64,000 nt of DNA from the NCBI RefSeq assembly GCF_013315695.1, contig NZ_CP054353.1; one strand, 5' to 3'. This DNA is from Escherichia coli. GTDB taxonomy: Bacteria > Pseudomonadota > Gammaproteobacteria > Enterobacterales > Enterobacteriaceae. The notes under the pieces were generated by a model. That model did no database searches and had not been told where the DNA came from. It saw only the letters and a program-made list of their open reading frames with translations. A program made the position numbers and the translations under genes. Below, one piece after another: positions 4,150-10,767 of the stretch (positions are counted from its first letter, which is position 1; each line of letters begins with the position of its first letter).

Positions 4150-5319
<1,170 letters not shown>

Positions 5320-5497
5320 TTACAAATCTCTGCCTGAGTCCAGAAAGGCTTAATGCATCAGCAGCATTCCTCGCCTGTTTGCAACCGCGTAAGGTCATTC
5401 ATCTGCATATGTGCTGCAACAATCTGGCGAGCAGACAAGCACACTCCCATGAGACGCAGCGCGCGTTATTCTACGTGAAAACGGATTAAACGGCAGG

Positions 5498-7438
5498 TTA
5501 AACCGAGTATCTTTGTGAATATTTTTTCACGTTAGTATCAAGTGGCTGTGAGGACGCGAAAAAATCCCCTTGCCCACCTGTAACACCGCGCTGAATCAGG
5601 GTCTGCCACTCGCTTCGCGAACGCACGCCGGTGGCGTAAACCTGGGTGCTGGTCCCGGAGCAGGCTTCCACCAGGCTTTGAACCAGCAGCTGGTTCTCCG
5701 TTCGCTTCTCAATGTTTCTGACCAGCCCCGGATGGAGCTTGAGTAACTCAACATTAAGTTCTTTGATCCAACTGGTGCTTACCAGCGTCAAACCAGCCTG
5801 GTTGACGGCTACCCGTACCCCTAAAGCATTCACTAAACGAATAACAGGTTGTAAGCGACTGATATGTTGACCTACATCGGCCTCTGCAAGTTCAATAATT
5901 ATGCGTTTTCGTTGCGATCTTTCACATTGCATTAACGTATCGCGCAGCCAACGCTGAAAACGCGGGCGAATCAGCGACTCAACGGTAACCTGAATCGCCA
6001 GATTTTCCTCCGGCCAGTAACGCAATAGTGGAATCAGACGGCTGATTTGCAGGCGGTCATACTCTTCCGATAAGCCAAACTGCAAGACCATCGGCATATA
6101 CTCCGCCGAGCTAACCTCTTCATTACCATCGAAGATGCGGCACATGAGTTCGCGATGATGAACCTGACCTTCGCGAGTAACCGCCGGTTTTTGATAAAGG
6201 CGCGGGCCGCCGCGACTCAGCATTTGCTCGATAAGCGTACGCCAGCGAACATTACCGCGTCCTTTTTCAGGCAACGAGTCATCGTAAATAGCCCAGCTAT
6301 TGCCGCCCTGCAATCCCGCATTACGCGTGGCAGACTCTGCATGTTCCATTACCTGCTCGGTATCCTGACCACTACGCCAGGCACAGATACCAATGTGGAT
6401 CATATCGTCGCGATCGAGCATTTTATTGTTCGGCAAGGTATCGACGGCTTTGATTAACTGACTGGCGATGCTCTCTGCCTCTTTTAACGTCCGGTGCGGT
6501 AACAGCGCAGCAAAATCACTGCGGTGGTAACGCGCCAGCAGTGCGCCAGGGTAGCGCATCATAAATGTCGATAGCAGATTCGTCAGAGAGAAGAACTGTT
6601 CTTCAACCTGGCTGTGCCCCCAGGTATCACTCAACATATTGAAATCCGGCAGACGAATCATCATCACGATCCCGTGGGTACCTACTTTCTCCTGATCTTC
6701 CAGTAACGTTGCTAACTGATTATCGAAGAAGAGTCGGTTATTGAGGCCGGTTTTCATGTCCTGGGCGGCATAAGAGCGGATCAGCGTATCAAGACGGCTG
6801 TGTTGTTCGCGTGCGTTCTGAATTTCACAAAGCAGCGTATCCAGCGCACTGCTGGTTCTGGGCGGCCATTCATAGATGGTTCCCAACACATTAGAGCCAC
6901 GCTCACCGTTTAAGATACGAGTAGCCCGGGTTTCCAGCAATTCTTGCCCGGCAAGTTGCCGTTGTAACCAGCGTACCGCCAGGAAGAGCATAAGAATGAT
7001 AAAGCCAATCGCCCCCGTGAGCGGCGCGGTAGTCATTAAAGAATGGAAATAGTTGCCCATCGGATCCTGATAAACCAGACGCAGCGACATCCCCGGATGC
7101 TTTATCAACGGAACGCTCAGTTCGCGAAACAGATCGCTGGTGCCAACCGGACGATAACTACCATTTCTGGCCAGGGTATATACCTGTTTATCACTATGCA
7201 GCAGGTCTACACGAACGATATCTGCTGACATCATTAATTCGGTAATTTGTGGCCTTAATGCGCTGAAGTCATTCGACACAAGATGGGTATCAATCGCCGT
7301 CGCCACCGCCTGAACGCGATGACTAAACTTATACTGAATGGCGTTGTAGAAACTTAGCGAACAGCCCAGCAAAGTCACAAAAATTGTTAACCCGGTGAGC
7401 AGCGTAACAAAGGCCGAAAATTTCGTCGTTAATCTCAT
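5498..7438 (-). CDS. csrD: CsrD, degenerate GGDEF-EAL protein that targets CsrB/CsrC sRNAs for decay
   Basis: 646-aa translation with N-terminal transmembrane segments and GGDEF/EAL-like domains; matches remembered CsrD (YhdA). Confidence 0.92.
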   Translation of the reverse strand: MRLTTKFSAFVTLLTGLTIFVTLLGCSLSFYNAIQYKFSHRVQAVATAIDTHLVSNDFSALRPQITELMMSADIVRVDLLHSDKQVYTLARNGSYRPVGTSDLFRELSVPLIKHPGMSLRLVYQDPMGNYFHSLMTTAPLTGAIGFIILMLFLAVRWLQRQLAGQELLETRATRILNGERGSNVLGTIYEWPPRTSSALDTLLCEIQNAREQHSRLDTLIRSYAAQDMKTGLNNRLFFDNQLATLLEDQEKVGTHGIVMMIRLPDFNMLSDTWGHSQVEEQFFSLTNLLSTFMMRYPGALLARYHRSDFAALLPHRTLKEAESIASQLIKAVDTLPNNKMLDRDDMIHIGICAWRSGQDTEQVMEHAESATRNAGLQGGNSWAIYDDSLPEKGRGNVRWRTLIEQMLSRGGPRLYQKPAVTREGQVHHRELMCRIFDGNEEVSSAEYMPMVLQFGLSEEYDRLQISRLIPLLRYWPEENLAIQVTVESLIRPRFQRWLRDTLMQCERSQRKRIIIELAEADVGQHISRLQPVIRLVNALGVRVAVNQAGLTLVSTSWIKELNVELLKLHPGLVRNIEKRTENQLLVQSLVEACSGTSTQVYATGVRSRSEWQTLIQRGVTGGQGDFFASSQPLDTNVKKYSQRYSV

Positions 7439-7589: not shown

Positions 7590-8564
7590 ATGCAGGCGTT
7601 ACTTTTAGAACAGCAGGACGGCAAAACTCTCGCATCAGTACAGACTCTGGACGAAAGTCGCCTGCCGGAAGGCGATGTCACGGTTGATGTTCACTGGTCG
7701 AGCCTGAACTACAAAGATGCGCTGGCAATTACCGGTAAGGGAAAAATCATCCGTAATTTTCCGATGATTCCTGGGATCGATTTTGCCGGAACTGTACGCA
7801 CCAGCGAAGATCCGCGTTTTCATGCCGGTCAGGAGGTGTTACTCACTGGCTGGGGCGTTGGTGAAAACCACTGGGGTGGGCTGGCGGAGCAGGCGCGAGT
7901 GAAAGGTGACTGGCTGGTTGCCATGCCGCAAGGGCTGGACGCGCGTAAAGCAATGATTATCGGTACTGCCGGTTTTACCGCCATGCTGTGTGTGATGGCG
8001 CTGGAAGATGCCGGTGTTCGCCCGCAGGACGGCGAGATTGTCGTAACGGGTGCCAGTGGTGGCGTCGGCAGTACCGCCGTGGCGCTGCTGCATAAGTTGG
8101 GTTATCAGGTCGTTGCCGTTTCCGGTCGCGAAAGTACCCATGAATATCTGAAAAGTTTAGGAGCCAGCCGTATTCTCCCTCGCGATGAGTTTGCCGAATC
8201 CCGTCCTCTGGAAAAACAAGTCTGGGCTGGGGCAATTGACACCGTTGGCGACAAAGTGCTGGCAAAAGTGCTGGCGCAAATGAATTACGGCGGCTGCGTG
8301 GCGGCCTGTGGTCTGGCGGGTGGTTTTACTCTGCCAACCACGGTCATGCCATTTATTCTGCGTAATGTCCGTTTGCAAGGGGTGGATTCAGTAATGACGC
8401 CACCAGCACGCCGCGCACAAGCCTGGCAGCGACTGGTCGCCGATTTACCGGAATCATTCTATACCCAGGCGGCAAAAGAGATATCTCTGGCAGATGCACC
8501 GAAGTTTGCCGAGGCCATCATTAATAACCAGATCCAGGGTCGCACGCTGGTGAAGGTTAACTAA
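7590..8564 (+). CDS. acuI: Acryloyl-CoA reductase / quinone oxidoreductase-like (MDR superfamily)
   Basis: 324-aa translation MQALLLEQQDGKTLASVQTLDESRLPEGDVTVD... with Gly-rich nucleotide-binding motif (VTGASGGVGS); matches remembered YhdH/AcuI. Confidence 0.92.
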   Translation: MQALLLEQQDGKTLASVQTLDESRLPEGDVTVDVHWSSLNYKDALAITGKGKIIRNFPMIPGIDFAGTVRTSEDPRFHAGQEVLLTGWGVGENHWGGLAEQARVKGDWLVAMPQGLDARKAMIIGTAGFTAMLCVMALEDAGVRPQDGEIVVTGASGGVGSTAVALLHKLGYQVVAVSGRESTHEYLKSLGASRILPRDEFAESRPLEKQVWAGAIDTVGDKVLAKVLAQMNYGGCVAACGLAGGFTLPTTVMPFILRNVRLQGVDSVMTPPARRAQAWQRLVADLPESFYTQAAKEISLADAPKFAEAIINNQIQGRTLVKVN

Positions 8565-8600
8565 CCATTTAGCAAGGATTAATAAGAGAGGGAACTCATT

Positions 8601-9431
8601 TTGAAATCATTATTCAATCGGTTAACGGGAAAAGCGGTTAGCCGGACAGCTTTCGTCGAACATCTTGGTCATGAAGTTGTACAACATCATCCAAACTGGA
8701 AAGTCATGATTTCGACTGACCATAAATTGATGCGCATTGATACGGGTCACCAAACGGTGGAAATCACTCTTGATGATGCCTACAAACGTTATCAAGCCGC
8801 ACCAGACCCGCTGGAAGAAGTGGCTGCAGATATGCTGAAACAGCTTGCAGAAATGCTGCCGACCGGGCGCTGTATTGTTCCGGTGATTAAAGAAAAAGCC
8901 TGGCTGGATACCGTTCGCCAACAGCTTAGCCAGTATGAATCTGATCCAGAGATCCTCAACGCCTCGCTGGATTTTGCCTGGGAAGACTTTAACGATGAGT
9001 TAATTATCTTGTTTGCTGAAGATGGTAGCGAAACCATGCGCTATCTGATGCGCTACGAAGTGACCATTGACCGCGAACAAGCCATCAATAATTTGAAGCA
9101 AATATTGCCGGAAGTTTCGGCTGAAATCGTTGATACAGGCGCAAACGCTGGAAAAGTTGCCGTTATCTCCGCAGGGGGTACTTATGAGCCCAGTCTGATG
9201 CTCATTGACGATCTTTGGGTGCAATCACCCGATCCTGAATGCGGCGACCTGTTAGTGACTGTTCCCTCCAGAGGAAAACTGTTTTTCACCTACAATGATC
9301 AGCCAGCAAATCTCAGCGCATTACGACAGTTAACAGAACAATGCTTCCGTGAGGATGACCATCCTCTGACAACACAGATATTCATCCGCCGTAACGGTCA
9401 CTTTTATCCCTGGGTAGAAACCTTGCATTAA
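8601..9431 (+). CDS. Hypothetical protein, 276 codons, function unknown
   Basis: Long uninterrupted ORF 36 bp downstream of acuI, TTG start preceded by a purine-rich stretch (agagaggg); first in-frame ATG is at 8706. Composition is protein-like, with some rare codons (AGA, ATA, CGA). A hairpin plus T-tract lies about 65 bp downstream. I do not recognise the product. Confidence 0.45.
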   Translation: MKSLFNRLTGKAVSRTAFVEHLGHEVVQHHPNWKVMISTDHKLMRIDTGHQTVEITLDDAYKRYQAAPDPLEEVAADMLKQLAEMLPTGRCIVPVIKEKAWLDTVRQQLSQYESDPEILNASLDFAWEDFNDELIILFAEDGSETMRYLMRYEVTIDREQAINNLKQILPEVSAEIVDTGANAGKVAVISAGGTYEPSLMLIDDLWVQSPDPECGDLLVTVPSRGKLFFTYNDQPANLSALRQLTEQCFREDDHPLTTQIFIRRNGHFYPWVETLH

Positions 9432-9494
9432 CGCAACCTCCGTCATGCTTGAAAAAGCTTGTCGGAGTATGTGATGAATGCTGCAAACTCACCG

Positions 9495-9527
9495 AAGCCG
9501 ATTTTGCCACCAAATCGGCTTTTTTAT
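9495..9527 (+). terminator. Candidate intrinsic terminator downstream of the 276-codon ORF
   Basis: Inverted repeat gccgattt / aaatcggc around a short loop, followed by ttttttatt. Confidence 0.5.
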
Positions 9528-9989
9528 TGTCACGCGGCAAATTCTGAATGCATCACATAGCCGCACTGCCGCCTGACAAAACAGTTTACCTTCTGCAAAA
9601 TGGGGGGAATAATCTGATTTTATTTGATTACAAATTAACCACTTAAACCTATTTAATGCTGAGCATTGTCAGTCGGTTGATTTTGCGTGCTTTAGCATTC
9701 ACATCTATCCAGACGATGCAGTGAAAATTGGGTAATCCCCAGCAACCGCTGCGTAATGTCGTCTATCTTGTCGCGATCCTGGCATCCCTACATTATTTGT
9801 GGTCTGTGAAGATTATCTCATTGCAGCCCCTCATCTTCGCAGGGCTGGCTTTACAGCTTTTCACCTTACGTTATAAGAAGTTCCGTCGATGATGGCGCTA
9901 ATTTCGTGAATTGTGCGGCTTGTTGCAAATTACACGGTGTTGAAGGTTATTTACATGTTAGCTGTTGATTATCTTCCCTGATAAGACCA

Positions 9990-10035
9990 GTATTTAGCTG
10001 CCAATTGCTACGAAATCGTTATAATGTGCGACCTC
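9990..10035 (+). promoter_or_regulatory. Candidate accBC promoter, -10 hexamer tataat at 10020..10025
   Basis: Perfect tataat about 270 bp upstream of accB; the accBC promoter is known to sit unusually far upstream of accB. The -35 assignment is ambiguous by eye. Confidence 0.4.
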
Positions 10036-10296
10036 GTCCTCCCTGACGCAGTTTTTGCGCTGCGGAAAAGGTGACATTGGCGCAACGAAGGTATATTTTG
10101 TTTTTTGCCGGAGGATAGCAGCAGATCGCTGCACAATGTCCGTCAAGTCTAACATTGACACTCTGGGGCAAAATAGACCGGCGTCCCGGCCTGCTGGAAT
10201 TTATCGCTATGCATACAGCTGTCGGGGCATACGCTTTACAGACGGCGGTGAAACGCCTGTCACAATCACACTAAACAAAGAGTACGGAACCCACTC

Positions 10297-10767
10297 ATGG
10301 ATATTCGTAAGATTAAAAAACTGATCGAGCTGGTTGAAGAATCAGGCATCTCCGAACTGGAAATTTCTGAAGGCGAAGAGTCAGTACGCATTAGCCGTGC
10401 AGCTCCTGCCGCAAGTTTCCCTGTGATGCAACAAGCTTACGCTGCACCAATGATGCAGCAGCCAGCTCAATCTAACGCAGCCGCTCCGGCGACCGTTCCT
10501 TCCATGGAAGCGCCAGCAGCAGCGGAAATCAGTGGTCACATCGTACGTTCCCCGATGGTTGGTACTTTCTACCGCACCCCAAGCCCGGACGCAAAAGCGT
10601 TCATCGAAGTGGGTCAGAAAGTCAACGTGGGCGATACCCTGTGCATCGTTGAAGCCATGAAAATGATGAACCAGATCGAAGCGGACAAATCCGGTACCGT
10701 GAAAGCAATTCTGGTCGAAAGTGGACAACCGGTAGAATTTGACGAGCCGCTGGTCGTCATCGAGTAA
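10297..10767 (+). CDS. accB: Biotin carboxyl carrier protein of acetyl-CoA carboxylase
   Basis: 156-aa translation [28 protein letters not shown]... with Ala/Pro-rich linker and the biotinylation motif [10 protein letters not shown]. Confidence 0.97.

What the first reader, a model, noticed from the sequence alone, without database searches (positions are those of the whole stretch)
8601..9431. Unassigned 276-codon ORF between acuI and accB with its own terminator
An 831-bp uninterrupted frame starts 36 bp after the acuI stop, with a TTG (or internal ATG at 8706) start and a purine-rich upstream stretch, and is followed about 65 bp downstream by a clean hairpin plus T-run. An open frame this long is unlikely by chance in about 1.7 kb of intergenic DNA. 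I cannot match the product to a family from memory and am unsure whether this frame is annotated as a gene in reference strains. It could be a real, poorly characterised conserved protein, a recently pseudogenised gene, or an annotation casualty.
Basis: seen in the sequence. Interest (0 to 1): 0.45.

Follow-up and report, generated by a model that had tools for sequence, protein, structure and literature searches.

The report
Intact yrdF gene, lost in K-12
The open frame is a real, already annotated accessory gene: the intact version of the E. coli K-12 pseudogene yrdF, encoding a divergent DUF1444/YtpQ-family protein of untested function that about 12% of E. coli strains still carry.

Summary
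An 831-bp frame (8601-9431, TTG start) lies 36 nt after acuI and is followed by an intrinsic terminator (9494-9530). It is not an unannotated gene. RefSeq annotates exactly this frame and start as "DUF1444 domain-containing protein" or "hypothetical protein". K-12 MG1655 annotates the first 143 bp as pseudogene yrdF (b4697), fused to yrdE (b4646), a remnant of an msrQ paralog. The intact gene is in 666 of 5,426 complete E. coli genomes, always between acuI and accB, and in E. albertii. An unidentified enteric relative shows the likely ancestral order acuI-yrdF-msrP. Window-type and K-12-type loci are two different deletion derivatives of that order. dN/dS is 0.12-0.16, and the start and length are conserved, so the gene is under purifying selection. 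It sometimes decays, and one sampled E. coli allele is frameshifted. The protein scores below Pfam's DUF1444 threshold, but profile-profile comparison with true DUF1444 proteins gives 100% probability. It has no signal peptide and no fold match in the PDB. The only characterised relative, Bacillaceae YtpQ/CgoN, is a flavin-dependent coproporphyrinogen III oxidase, so a related tetrapyrrole or redox role is only a guess. Interest is low.

The parts
7590..8564 (+). acuI (yhdH), acrylyl-CoA reductase. This is the upstream gene and probably shares a transcript with the ORF.
   Evidence: ORF list; RefSeq annotation of the identical locus. No terminator-like or promoter-like site lies between the acuI stop and 8601. 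Co-transcription is inferred, not shown.
8586..8592 (+). Shine-Dalgarno-like GAGAGGG, 8 nt upstream of the TTG start
   Evidence: Read from the sequence. A similar GAGAAGGA precedes the ATG start of the 60%-identical homolog in L014.
8601..9431 (+). Intact yrdF CDS (276 aa, TTG start), encoding a divergent cytoplasmic DUF1444/YtpQ-superfamily protein
   Evidence: WP_000838294.1; dN/dS; hhalign 100%; AF2 pLDDT 90.6; K-12 yrdF equals the first 143 bp.
8601..8743 (+). The part of the CDS that K-12-type genomes retain as pseudogene yrdF (b4697)
   Evidence: K-12 annotation; 139 of 143 bases identical; blastn junctions.
8744..9599 (+). 856-bp segment present in 666 of 5,426 complete E. coli genomes. 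K-12-type genomes have instead 101 bp of msrQ-paralog sequence that this window lacks.
9494..9530 (+). Intrinsic terminator of yrdF (11-bp stem, 7-nt loop, T-run)
   Evidence: A G+C-rich segment plus T-run lies at the same place in L013, ahead of msrP. The E. albertii copy has an interrupted T-run.
9527..9575 (+). Degenerate remnant of the 5' end of an msrP paralog (start codon region and Tat-signal codons, frameshifted). Coordinates are approximate.
   Evidence: Alignment with L013, where an open msrP reading frame (cut by the contig end after 50 codons) begins MQRRQILKALGISAAALSLP... right after the terminator.
9590..9892 (+). Remnant of the 3' part of an msrQ/yedZ paralog (equivalent to part of K-12 pseudogene yrdE, b4646)
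   Evidence: PGAP pseudogene annotation in the identical locus. The K-12-type version is 65% identical to MsrQ residues 84-195. K-12 yrdE annotation.

Best explanation
The frame is a real protein-coding gene: the intact allele of the locus that K-12 carries as pseudogene yrdF. It encodes a 276-aa protein with no signal peptide, so probably cytoplasmic. The protein is a divergent member of the DUF1444/UPF0354 (YtpQ) superfamily. The gene starts at the TTG at 8601 behind a GAGAGGG ribosome-binding site. It is probably transcribed from upstream together with acuI (inferred), and its own hairpin plus T-run at 9494-9530 should end the transcript.

The ancestral order at this site was acuI-yrdF-msrP-msrQ-accB. 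In the window-type lineage a deletion removed most of msrP and the 5' half of msrQ and left yrdF whole. In the K-12-type lineage a different deletion fused yrdF codon 48 to the middle of msrQ. The gene is dispensable: 88% of complete E. coli genomes lack it. Where it is kept, it is under purifying selection.

The biochemical function is not shown. My best guess, from the only characterised family member (Bacillaceae YtpQ/CgoN), is a flavin-assisted redox or tetrapyrrole-handling activity, such as porphyrinogen oxidation or heme/iron homeostasis. I give that specific step only about 0.2.
For: Real ORF beyond chance: 0 of 2,000 shuffles reached its length.

Annotation: the same CDS and start are annotated in RefSeq. 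The exact protein is on at least 1,000 contigs. K-12 yrdF (b4697) equals window 8601-8743 at 139/143 bases, and yrdE (b4646) follows it. A paper states both are pseudogenes (PMC7648144).

Distribution: 666 of 5,426 genomes carry the segment, on the chromosome only, one copy each. The gene is syntenic in E. albertii.

Ancestral order: contig L013 has acuI-yrdF-terminator-msrP. Each E. coli allele type holds sequence the other lacks.

Selection: dN/dS is 0.12-0.16 at dS of 0.06-1.0. Eight of nine fetched E. coli alleles are intact with a TTG start.

Family: Pfam DUF1444 aligns over the full length but below threshold, and NCBIfam PRK13668 gives E 2.5e-4. The exhaustive profile search found 2,017 representatives, and 79 of 85 top hits match PF07285. 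hhalign against true DUF1444 proteins gives 100% probability, E 3.9e-65. The AF2 model has pLDDT 90.6.

Localisation and transcript: no hydrophobic N-terminus. Terminator.

CgoN activity of YtpQ: PMC10965808.
Against: The function is untested, and the homology to CgoN is remote: 20.7 bits against a 221-bit equivalog cut-off.

By established knowledge E. coli makes heme through protoporphyrin, so coproporphyrin III would have no obvious use.

S. aureus genetics left the DUF1444 function 'still unknown' (PMC6620371).

36 of 48 of the nearest relatives outside the Escherichia-type group (those that carry source names are from Verrucomicrobiota, Lentisphaeria, Pirellulales or Thermoanaerobaculia) have signal-like N-termini. 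That fits poorly with one shared cytoplasmic flavoenzyme role.

Four loci of distant relatives share no conserved neighbourhood and contain no heme genes.

The gene is lost in most E. coli, and some alleles are frameshifted or truncated.

No expression data were available, and co-transcription with acuI is inferred only from the absence of signals.
Confidence: 0.9

Rival explanations
1. The frame is a neutral relic: a gene already released from selection and on its way to loss, still open only because too little time has passed.
For: It is absent from 88% of complete E. coli genomes. Frameshifted or truncated alleles exist: L010, P0005 at 198 aa, 199-aa E. albertii forms, and the frameshifted 38%-identical relative in two samples. 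Its former neighbours msrP and msrQ have decayed at this locus.
Against: dN/dS stays at 0.12-0.16 over comparisons with dS up to about 1.0 (E. coli vs E. albertii vs L013), and is 0.19 between the two 60%-class homologs. Start, length and family motifs are conserved. Eight of nine sampled E. coli alleles are intact.
Confidence: 0.15
2. The gene is a horizontally acquired insertion in a minority of strains, not an ancestral gene lost by the majority.
For: GC is somewhat low at 0.455-0.48, against 0.50-0.58 in the flanking genes. Close relatives are very few (12 word-index hits). A 62%-identical homolog sits beside KfrA-type plasmid genes. dS against E. albertii is lower for this gene (0.27) than for acuI (0.51).
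Against: K-12-type genomes keep the first 143 bp of the gene at the same site, so its absence there is a deletion. The same slot is occupied in E. albertii and in a roughly 78%-identical enteric relative. There are no repeats, integrase or mobile-element genes at the borders. No true plasmid copy exists in PLSDB.
Confidence: 0.08
3. It is a chance open frame or a non-coding spacer, or the real gene lies on the opposite strand.
For: The TTG start is non-canonical. Several 74-99-aa ORFs lie on the opposite strand.
Against: 0 of 2,000 shuffles reach this length. The substitution pattern is codon-structured in this frame. Full-length homology to about 2,000 protein clusters. A confident fold prediction.
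Confidence: 0.01

Closest known systems
E. coli K-12 pseudogene yrdF (b4697), with neighbouring pseudogene yrdE (b4646)
   Same: Same chromosomal slot, 36 nt after acuI. The 143 bp of K-12 yrdF match window 8601-8743 at 139/143 bases. yrdE corresponds to the msrQ-paralog remnant at 9590-9892.
   Different: The window carries the complete 276-codon gene plus its terminator. K-12 keeps only codons 1-48. K-12 keeps about 34 more msrQ codons (101 bp) than the window does.
YtpQ/CgoN of Priestia megaterium and Bacillus subtilis (DUF1444, UPF0354; oxygen-independent coproporphyrinogen III oxidase, PMC10965808)
   Different: The sequence relation is very remote: 16 bits against Pfam's gathering score of 23.8, and 20.7 bits against a 221-bit equivalog cut-off. 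By established knowledge the host lacks the coproporphyrin-dependent heme pathway. There are no heme genes nearby. Activity is untested.
DUF1444 family proteins of other phyla (named examples: Verrucomicrobiota, Lentisphaeria, Pirellulales, Thermoanaerobaculia), annotated 'YtpQ (UPF0354 family)'
   Same: These are the nearest large group, at about 30% identity over the full length, with hhalign probability 100%. Shared motifs are PVIK[DE][KR]xW, AEDxxxxxRYL, AGGxYExSLLL and PxR.
   Different: 36 of 48 of them carry signal-like or lipoprotein-like N-termini, and the Escherichia-type proteins carry none. The RD of the PxRD motif is RG in the Escherichia-type proteins.

Membership tests
Intact ortholog of K-12 pseudogene yrdF (b4697) | Same position and orientation directly downstream of acuI, with nucleotide identity to the annotated 143-bp remnant | tested here: met
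   K-12 yrdF lies at 3404495-3404637, 36 nt after acuI. It is 139/143 identical to window 8601-8743.
Pfam PF07285 DUF1444 / UPF0354 superfamily | Score at or above Pfam's gathering threshold (23.8 bits) | tested here: not met
   16.0 bits, E 0.009, although the alignment spans residues 29-270 against model positions 15-254 of 264.
Pfam PF07285 DUF1444 / UPF0354 superfamily | Full-length homology to proteins that do pass the family threshold | tested here: met
   The profile search returned 2,017 representatives. 79 of 85 aligned top hits match PF07285. hhalign of the Escherichia-type profile against 48 such proteins gives 100% probability, E 3.9e-65, over 251 columns.
Pfam PF07285 DUF1444 / UPF0354 superfamily | Conserved family motifs (PVIKD/E-R/K-x-W; AED...RYL; AGGxYExSLLL; P-x-R) | tested here: met
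   N164 and P222 are invariant. K97, D141, G193, S198, W206 and R224, among others, are nearly invariant and present in the window protein. The D after R224 is G in the Escherichia-type proteins.
Pfam PF07285 DUF1444 / UPF0354 superfamily | Multi-domain alpha/beta fold with no counterpart among solved structures (as described for YtpQ in PMC10965808) | tested here: inconclusive
CgoN / YtpQ equivalog (NCBIfam NF010189, PRK13668) | Score at or above the equivalog cut-off (221 bits) | tested here: not met
   20.7 bits, E 2.5e-4. It is not an equivalog.
CgoN / YtpQ equivalog (NCBIfam NF010189, PRK13668) | FAD-stimulated, oxygen-independent oxidation of coproporphyrinogen III to coproporphyrin III | not testable with these tools
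   This is a biochemical assay (PMC10965808).
CgoN / YtpQ equivalog (NCBIfam NF010189, PRK13668) | Occurrence in a genome that has the coproporphyrin-dependent heme pathway (cpfC, chdC), or next to heme genes | not tested
   By established knowledge E. coli uses the protoporphyrin-dependent pathway. The neighbours here are acuI, msrPQ remnants and accBC. Four loci of distant relatives hold no heme genes.
Rho-independent (intrinsic) terminator | G+C-containing hairpin immediately followed by a T-run, downstream of the stop codon | tested here: met
   Stem 9494-9522 (11 pairs, 4 G-C) followed by TTTATTGTCA, with a run of six T spanning the stem's 3' end and the start of the tail. Fold z = -4.0.

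The most novel reading that the evidence does not exclude
Intact YrdF might be a working cytoplasmic flavin-linked oxidoreductase of Gram-negative enterics, descended from the DUF1444/CgoN lineage. It once sat directly upstream of an msrPQ copy. It could, for example, handle porphyrinogens or heme, or pass electrons toward the heme/flavin protein MsrQ. On this reading, most E. coli shed it after that msrPQ copy decayed. The two deletion alleles would then be an old polymorphism shared across E. coli lineages and E. albertii.
Probability: 0.08. Interest if true: 0.5.

Novelty: already known. Interest (0 to 1): 0.15.

Why it matters
The finding matters little beyond housekeeping. It shows that the K-12 pseudogenes yrdF and yrdE are the wreck of an older acuI-yrdF-msrP-msrQ-accB arrangement. 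It shows that a whole, selected copy of yrdF survives in about one in eight E. coli, including O26:H11, O111, O145:H28 and SMS-3-5, and in E. albertii. It places the protein in the DUF1444/YtpQ superfamily. That family's only biochemical assignment (CgoN) is recent and is not backed by the genetics in S. aureus. A signal-less enterobacterial member in a genetically tractable host could help test what the family does.

Tried and rejected
Direct family assignment from single-sequence HMM scans gave only sub-threshold hits. Iterated profile work was needed.

A first AF2 run on a 5-sequence alignment was poor (pLDDT 53). It was replaced by an 85-sequence run.

A defence-system or phage origin was rejected: there were no PADLOC or PHROGs hits.

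A plasmid origin was rejected: the four PLSDB 'plasmid' hits are three 4.8-4.9-Mb chromosomes mislabelled as plasmids and one 354-kb record, and three of the four, including that one, match only residues 1-48.

Genomic context of distant homologs gave no recurring neighbours.

A search for an E. coli genome that still has msrP next to yrdF found none.

Literature searches for the RefSeq protein accessions found nothing.

The GTDB-representative scan found only E. albertii and one Haloferula relative. That scan depends on two peptide patterns, so absence elsewhere is not proven.

Full report
**1. The observation**

The ORF list shows a 276-codon frame at 8601-9431 (+) with a TTG start, 36 nt after the acuI stop at 8564. 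The sequence shows GAGAGGG at 8586-8592, 8 nt before the TTG, and an in-frame ATG at 8706.

A terminator-like hairpin lies at 9494-9522 (11 pairs, 7-nt loop) and is followed by a T-run. The 9480-9540 stretch folds at -20.4 kcal/mol, z = -4.0, and none of 200 shuffles folds as well.

The acuI-accB interval is 1,732 bp and its longest stop-free run is 281 codons. Two thousand dinucleotide-preserving shuffles gave a mean of 118 +/- 26 and a maximum of 268.

**2. It is already annotated, and K-12 holds its wreck**

A megablast of 8400-10300 against 5,426 complete E. coli genomes matched 5,425 of them, but only 666 over the whole length. The 856-bp segment 8744-9599 alone is found in 669 genomes, 666 of them at full length. 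It is always a single chromosomal copy.

In every genome I opened that carries an intact copy, RefSeq annotates the same CDS with the same TTG start. The product name is "DUF1444 domain-containing protein" or "hypothetical protein". Examples are WP_000838294.1 in an identical locus, O145:H28 RM12761 and O26:H11 11368. SMS-3-5 also matched the variable segment at 100% and carries a 'hypothetical protein' annotation under the match, although I did not open that record. The exact window protein is recorded on at least 1,000 public contigs.

In K-12 MG1655 the interval carries two annotated pseudogenes:
- yrdF (b4697), 143 bp, starting 36 nt after acuI.
- yrdE (b4646), 394 bp.

K-12 yrdF is identical to window 8601-8743 at 139 of 143 bases. 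A paper that cloned this region states that yrdF and yrdE are pseudogenes (PMC7648144). Others use yrdE as a neutral site for a marker. So the window ORF is the intact allele of yrdF.

**3. How the two locus types relate**

K-12-type loci match the window up to 8743. They then carry 101 bp that the window lacks, and they rejoin the window at 9600. Those 101 bp, plus what follows, translate to a decayed MsrQ-like sequence that is 65% identical to K-12 MsrQ residues 84-195. PGAP marks the window's 9590-9892 as an msrQ/yedZ-type pseudogene.

A metagenome-derived contig (L013) is only about 78% identical to E. coli in DNA. It encodes a 78%-identical homolog directly after acuI. The homolog is followed by a hairpin and T-run, and then by an open msrP reading frame (cut by the contig end after 50 codons) beginning with a Tat-type signal, MQRRQILKALGISAAALSLP. 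The window's 9527-9575 still aligns to that msrP start but is frameshifted.

The simplest history is an ancestral order acuI-yrdF-msrP-msrQ-accB and two independent deletions:
- One runs from the start of msrP into the middle of msrQ. This gives the window type, which E. albertii also has.
- The other runs from yrdF codon 48 into msrQ, slightly further upstream. This gives the K-12 type.

Each type keeps sequence that the other lacks, so neither can be derived from the other by deletion alone. This history is inference from the alignments.

**4. It is a gene under selection**

I computed Nei-Gojobori estimates on codon alignments:
- Window vs other E. coli alleles: dN/dS 0.16-0.42, on few changes.
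- Window vs E. albertii: 0.14 (dS 0.28).
- Window vs L013: 0.13 (dS 1.0).
- Between the two homologs of the 60% class: 0.19.
- acuI, for comparison: 0.03-0.07.

Eight of nine fetched E. coli alleles are open and start with TTG. One is frameshifted. The 60-62% homologs start with ATG at the aligned position, which supports 8601 over 8706 as the start.

Some decay is visible. There are truncated forms in E. coli and E. albertii and a frameshifted 38%-identical relative seen in two samples. The gene is therefore dispensable, but it is maintained where present.

**5. What the protein is**

Single-sequence scans gave only sub-threshold, full-length matches. Pfam DUF1444 scored 16 bits against a cut-off of 23.8. 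NCBIfam PRK13668 scored 20.7 bits against 221.

The word-index search found just 12 relatives. An exhaustive profile search of 1.84 billion representatives found 2,017 at E <= 1e-3 and 162 at E <= 1e-30, nearly all full-length proteins of about 280 aa. Of 85 aligned members, 79 match PF07285. Those that carry a source name come from Verrucomicrobiota, Lentisphaeria, Pirellulales and Thermoanaerobaculia, and many are labelled YtpQ/UPF0354.

A profile-profile comparison of the Escherichia-type group with 48 of these proteins gave 100% probability, E 3.9e-65, over 251 columns. Family motifs are retained. The protein is thus a divergent member of the DUF1444 superfamily. It is not an equivalog of Firmicute YtpQ.

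The Escherichia-type proteins have no hydrophobic N-terminus. In contrast, 36 of 48 of the nearest relatives outside the Escherichia-type group have signal-like or lipoprotein-like N-termini.

**6. Function**

The only biochemical assignment in the family is Priestia megaterium YtpQ, named CgoN. It is a FAD-stimulated, menadione-coupled, oxygen-independent coproporphyrinogen III oxidase with a low turnover of 0.63 per min (PMC10965808). B. subtilis ytpQ was linked to iron homeostasis (PMC3176815). In S. aureus, the cgoX mutant's complete failure to grow aerobically or anaerobically led the authors to conclude that any contribution of the DUF1444 gene to heme synthesis is minimal and that its function is still unknown (PMC6620371).

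By established knowledge, E. coli makes heme through protoporphyrin and has no obvious use for coproporphyrin III. The neighbours here are acuI, msrPQ remnants and accBC. Four loci of distant relatives share no neighbours and hold no heme genes. There are no hits to defence or phage families.

I therefore commit only to a cytoplasmic DUF1444-type protein, most likely with a flavin-linked redox or tetrapyrrole-related activity. My confidence in that specific step is about 0.2.

**7. Origin**

GC is slightly low, at 0.455-0.48. One 62%-identical homolog lies beside KfrA-type plasmid genes. No true plasmid in PLSDB carries the gene.

The K-12 remnant at the same site, the synteny in E. albertii and the synteny in L013 all argue that the gene is ancestral here and was lost by deletion, not inserted.

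**8. Verdict**

The finding is real but ordinary. It is a known, annotated accessory gene whose K-12 remnant already has a name. The useful additions are:
- the explicit link between intact yrdF and the DUF1444/YtpQ superfamily;
- the reconstruction of the ancestral yrdF-msrPQ arrangement;
- the evidence for purifying selection.

The function remains untested.

Noticed in passing
window 9527-9892: The spacer upstream of accB holds remnants of a second msrP-msrQ (yedYZ) copy. There is a frameshifted msrP 5' end right after the yrdF terminator, and the 3' part of an msrQ paralog (K-12 yrdE). The working msrPQ of K-12 lies elsewhere, at b1971-b1972.
   Followed up: partly
window 9998-10025: This is the best sigma-70-like site in the interval (CTGCCA, 16-nt spacer, TATAAT; 10 of 12 matches). 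It lies about 270 nt upstream of the accB start at 10297, which fits a long accBC leader. It is fully conserved between window-type and K-12-type loci.
   Followed up: no
L011 (E. albertii) 4990-6816 vs window 7590-9431: Synonymous divergence between E. coli and E. albertii is about half as large for yrdF (dS 0.27) as for the adjacent acuI (dS 0.51). This could reflect recombination between the species at this locus, or different codon constraints.
   Followed up: no
L004 3898-4731 and L005 698-1531: A 62%-identical yrdF homolog (ATG start) sits in a plasmid-like setting (KfrA_N, Aca2/YdiL antitoxin-like and ResIII fragment genes). The flanks are about 81% identical to enterobacterial plasmids, but the gene itself is absent from PLSDB plasmids.
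   Followed up: partly
L006 2268-3112 and L007 926-1770: A 38%-identical relative lies after metL (homoserine dehydrogenase) and metF and before a ydjM-like gene, in an unidentified bacterium. It carries the same frameshift near codon 225 in two independent samples, so it is probably a true pseudogene.
   Followed up: partly
L021 (O157:H7 strain TR01) 1296-1550: This record appears to join the yrdF 5' end (window 8501-8782) to window 9559 onward and contains ambiguous bases at the junction. It is probably an assembly artefact and not a third deletion allele. It is one of 3 of the 669 matching records that lack a full-length match; the other two were not examined.
   Followed up: partly
protein of window 8601-9428: Some public records (a UniRef cluster and STK15711.1) name this protein 'Initiation of DNA replication'. 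Nothing in the sequence, family or context supports that label.
   Followed up: no
window 8601-8743 and K-12 L016 1496-1660: In K-12-type genomes the truncated gene keeps its SD and TTG start. Together with the junction sequence it forms a 54-codon open frame (MKSLFNRL...MRIDTPLNSYY). Whether this stub is translated is unknown.
   Followed up: no
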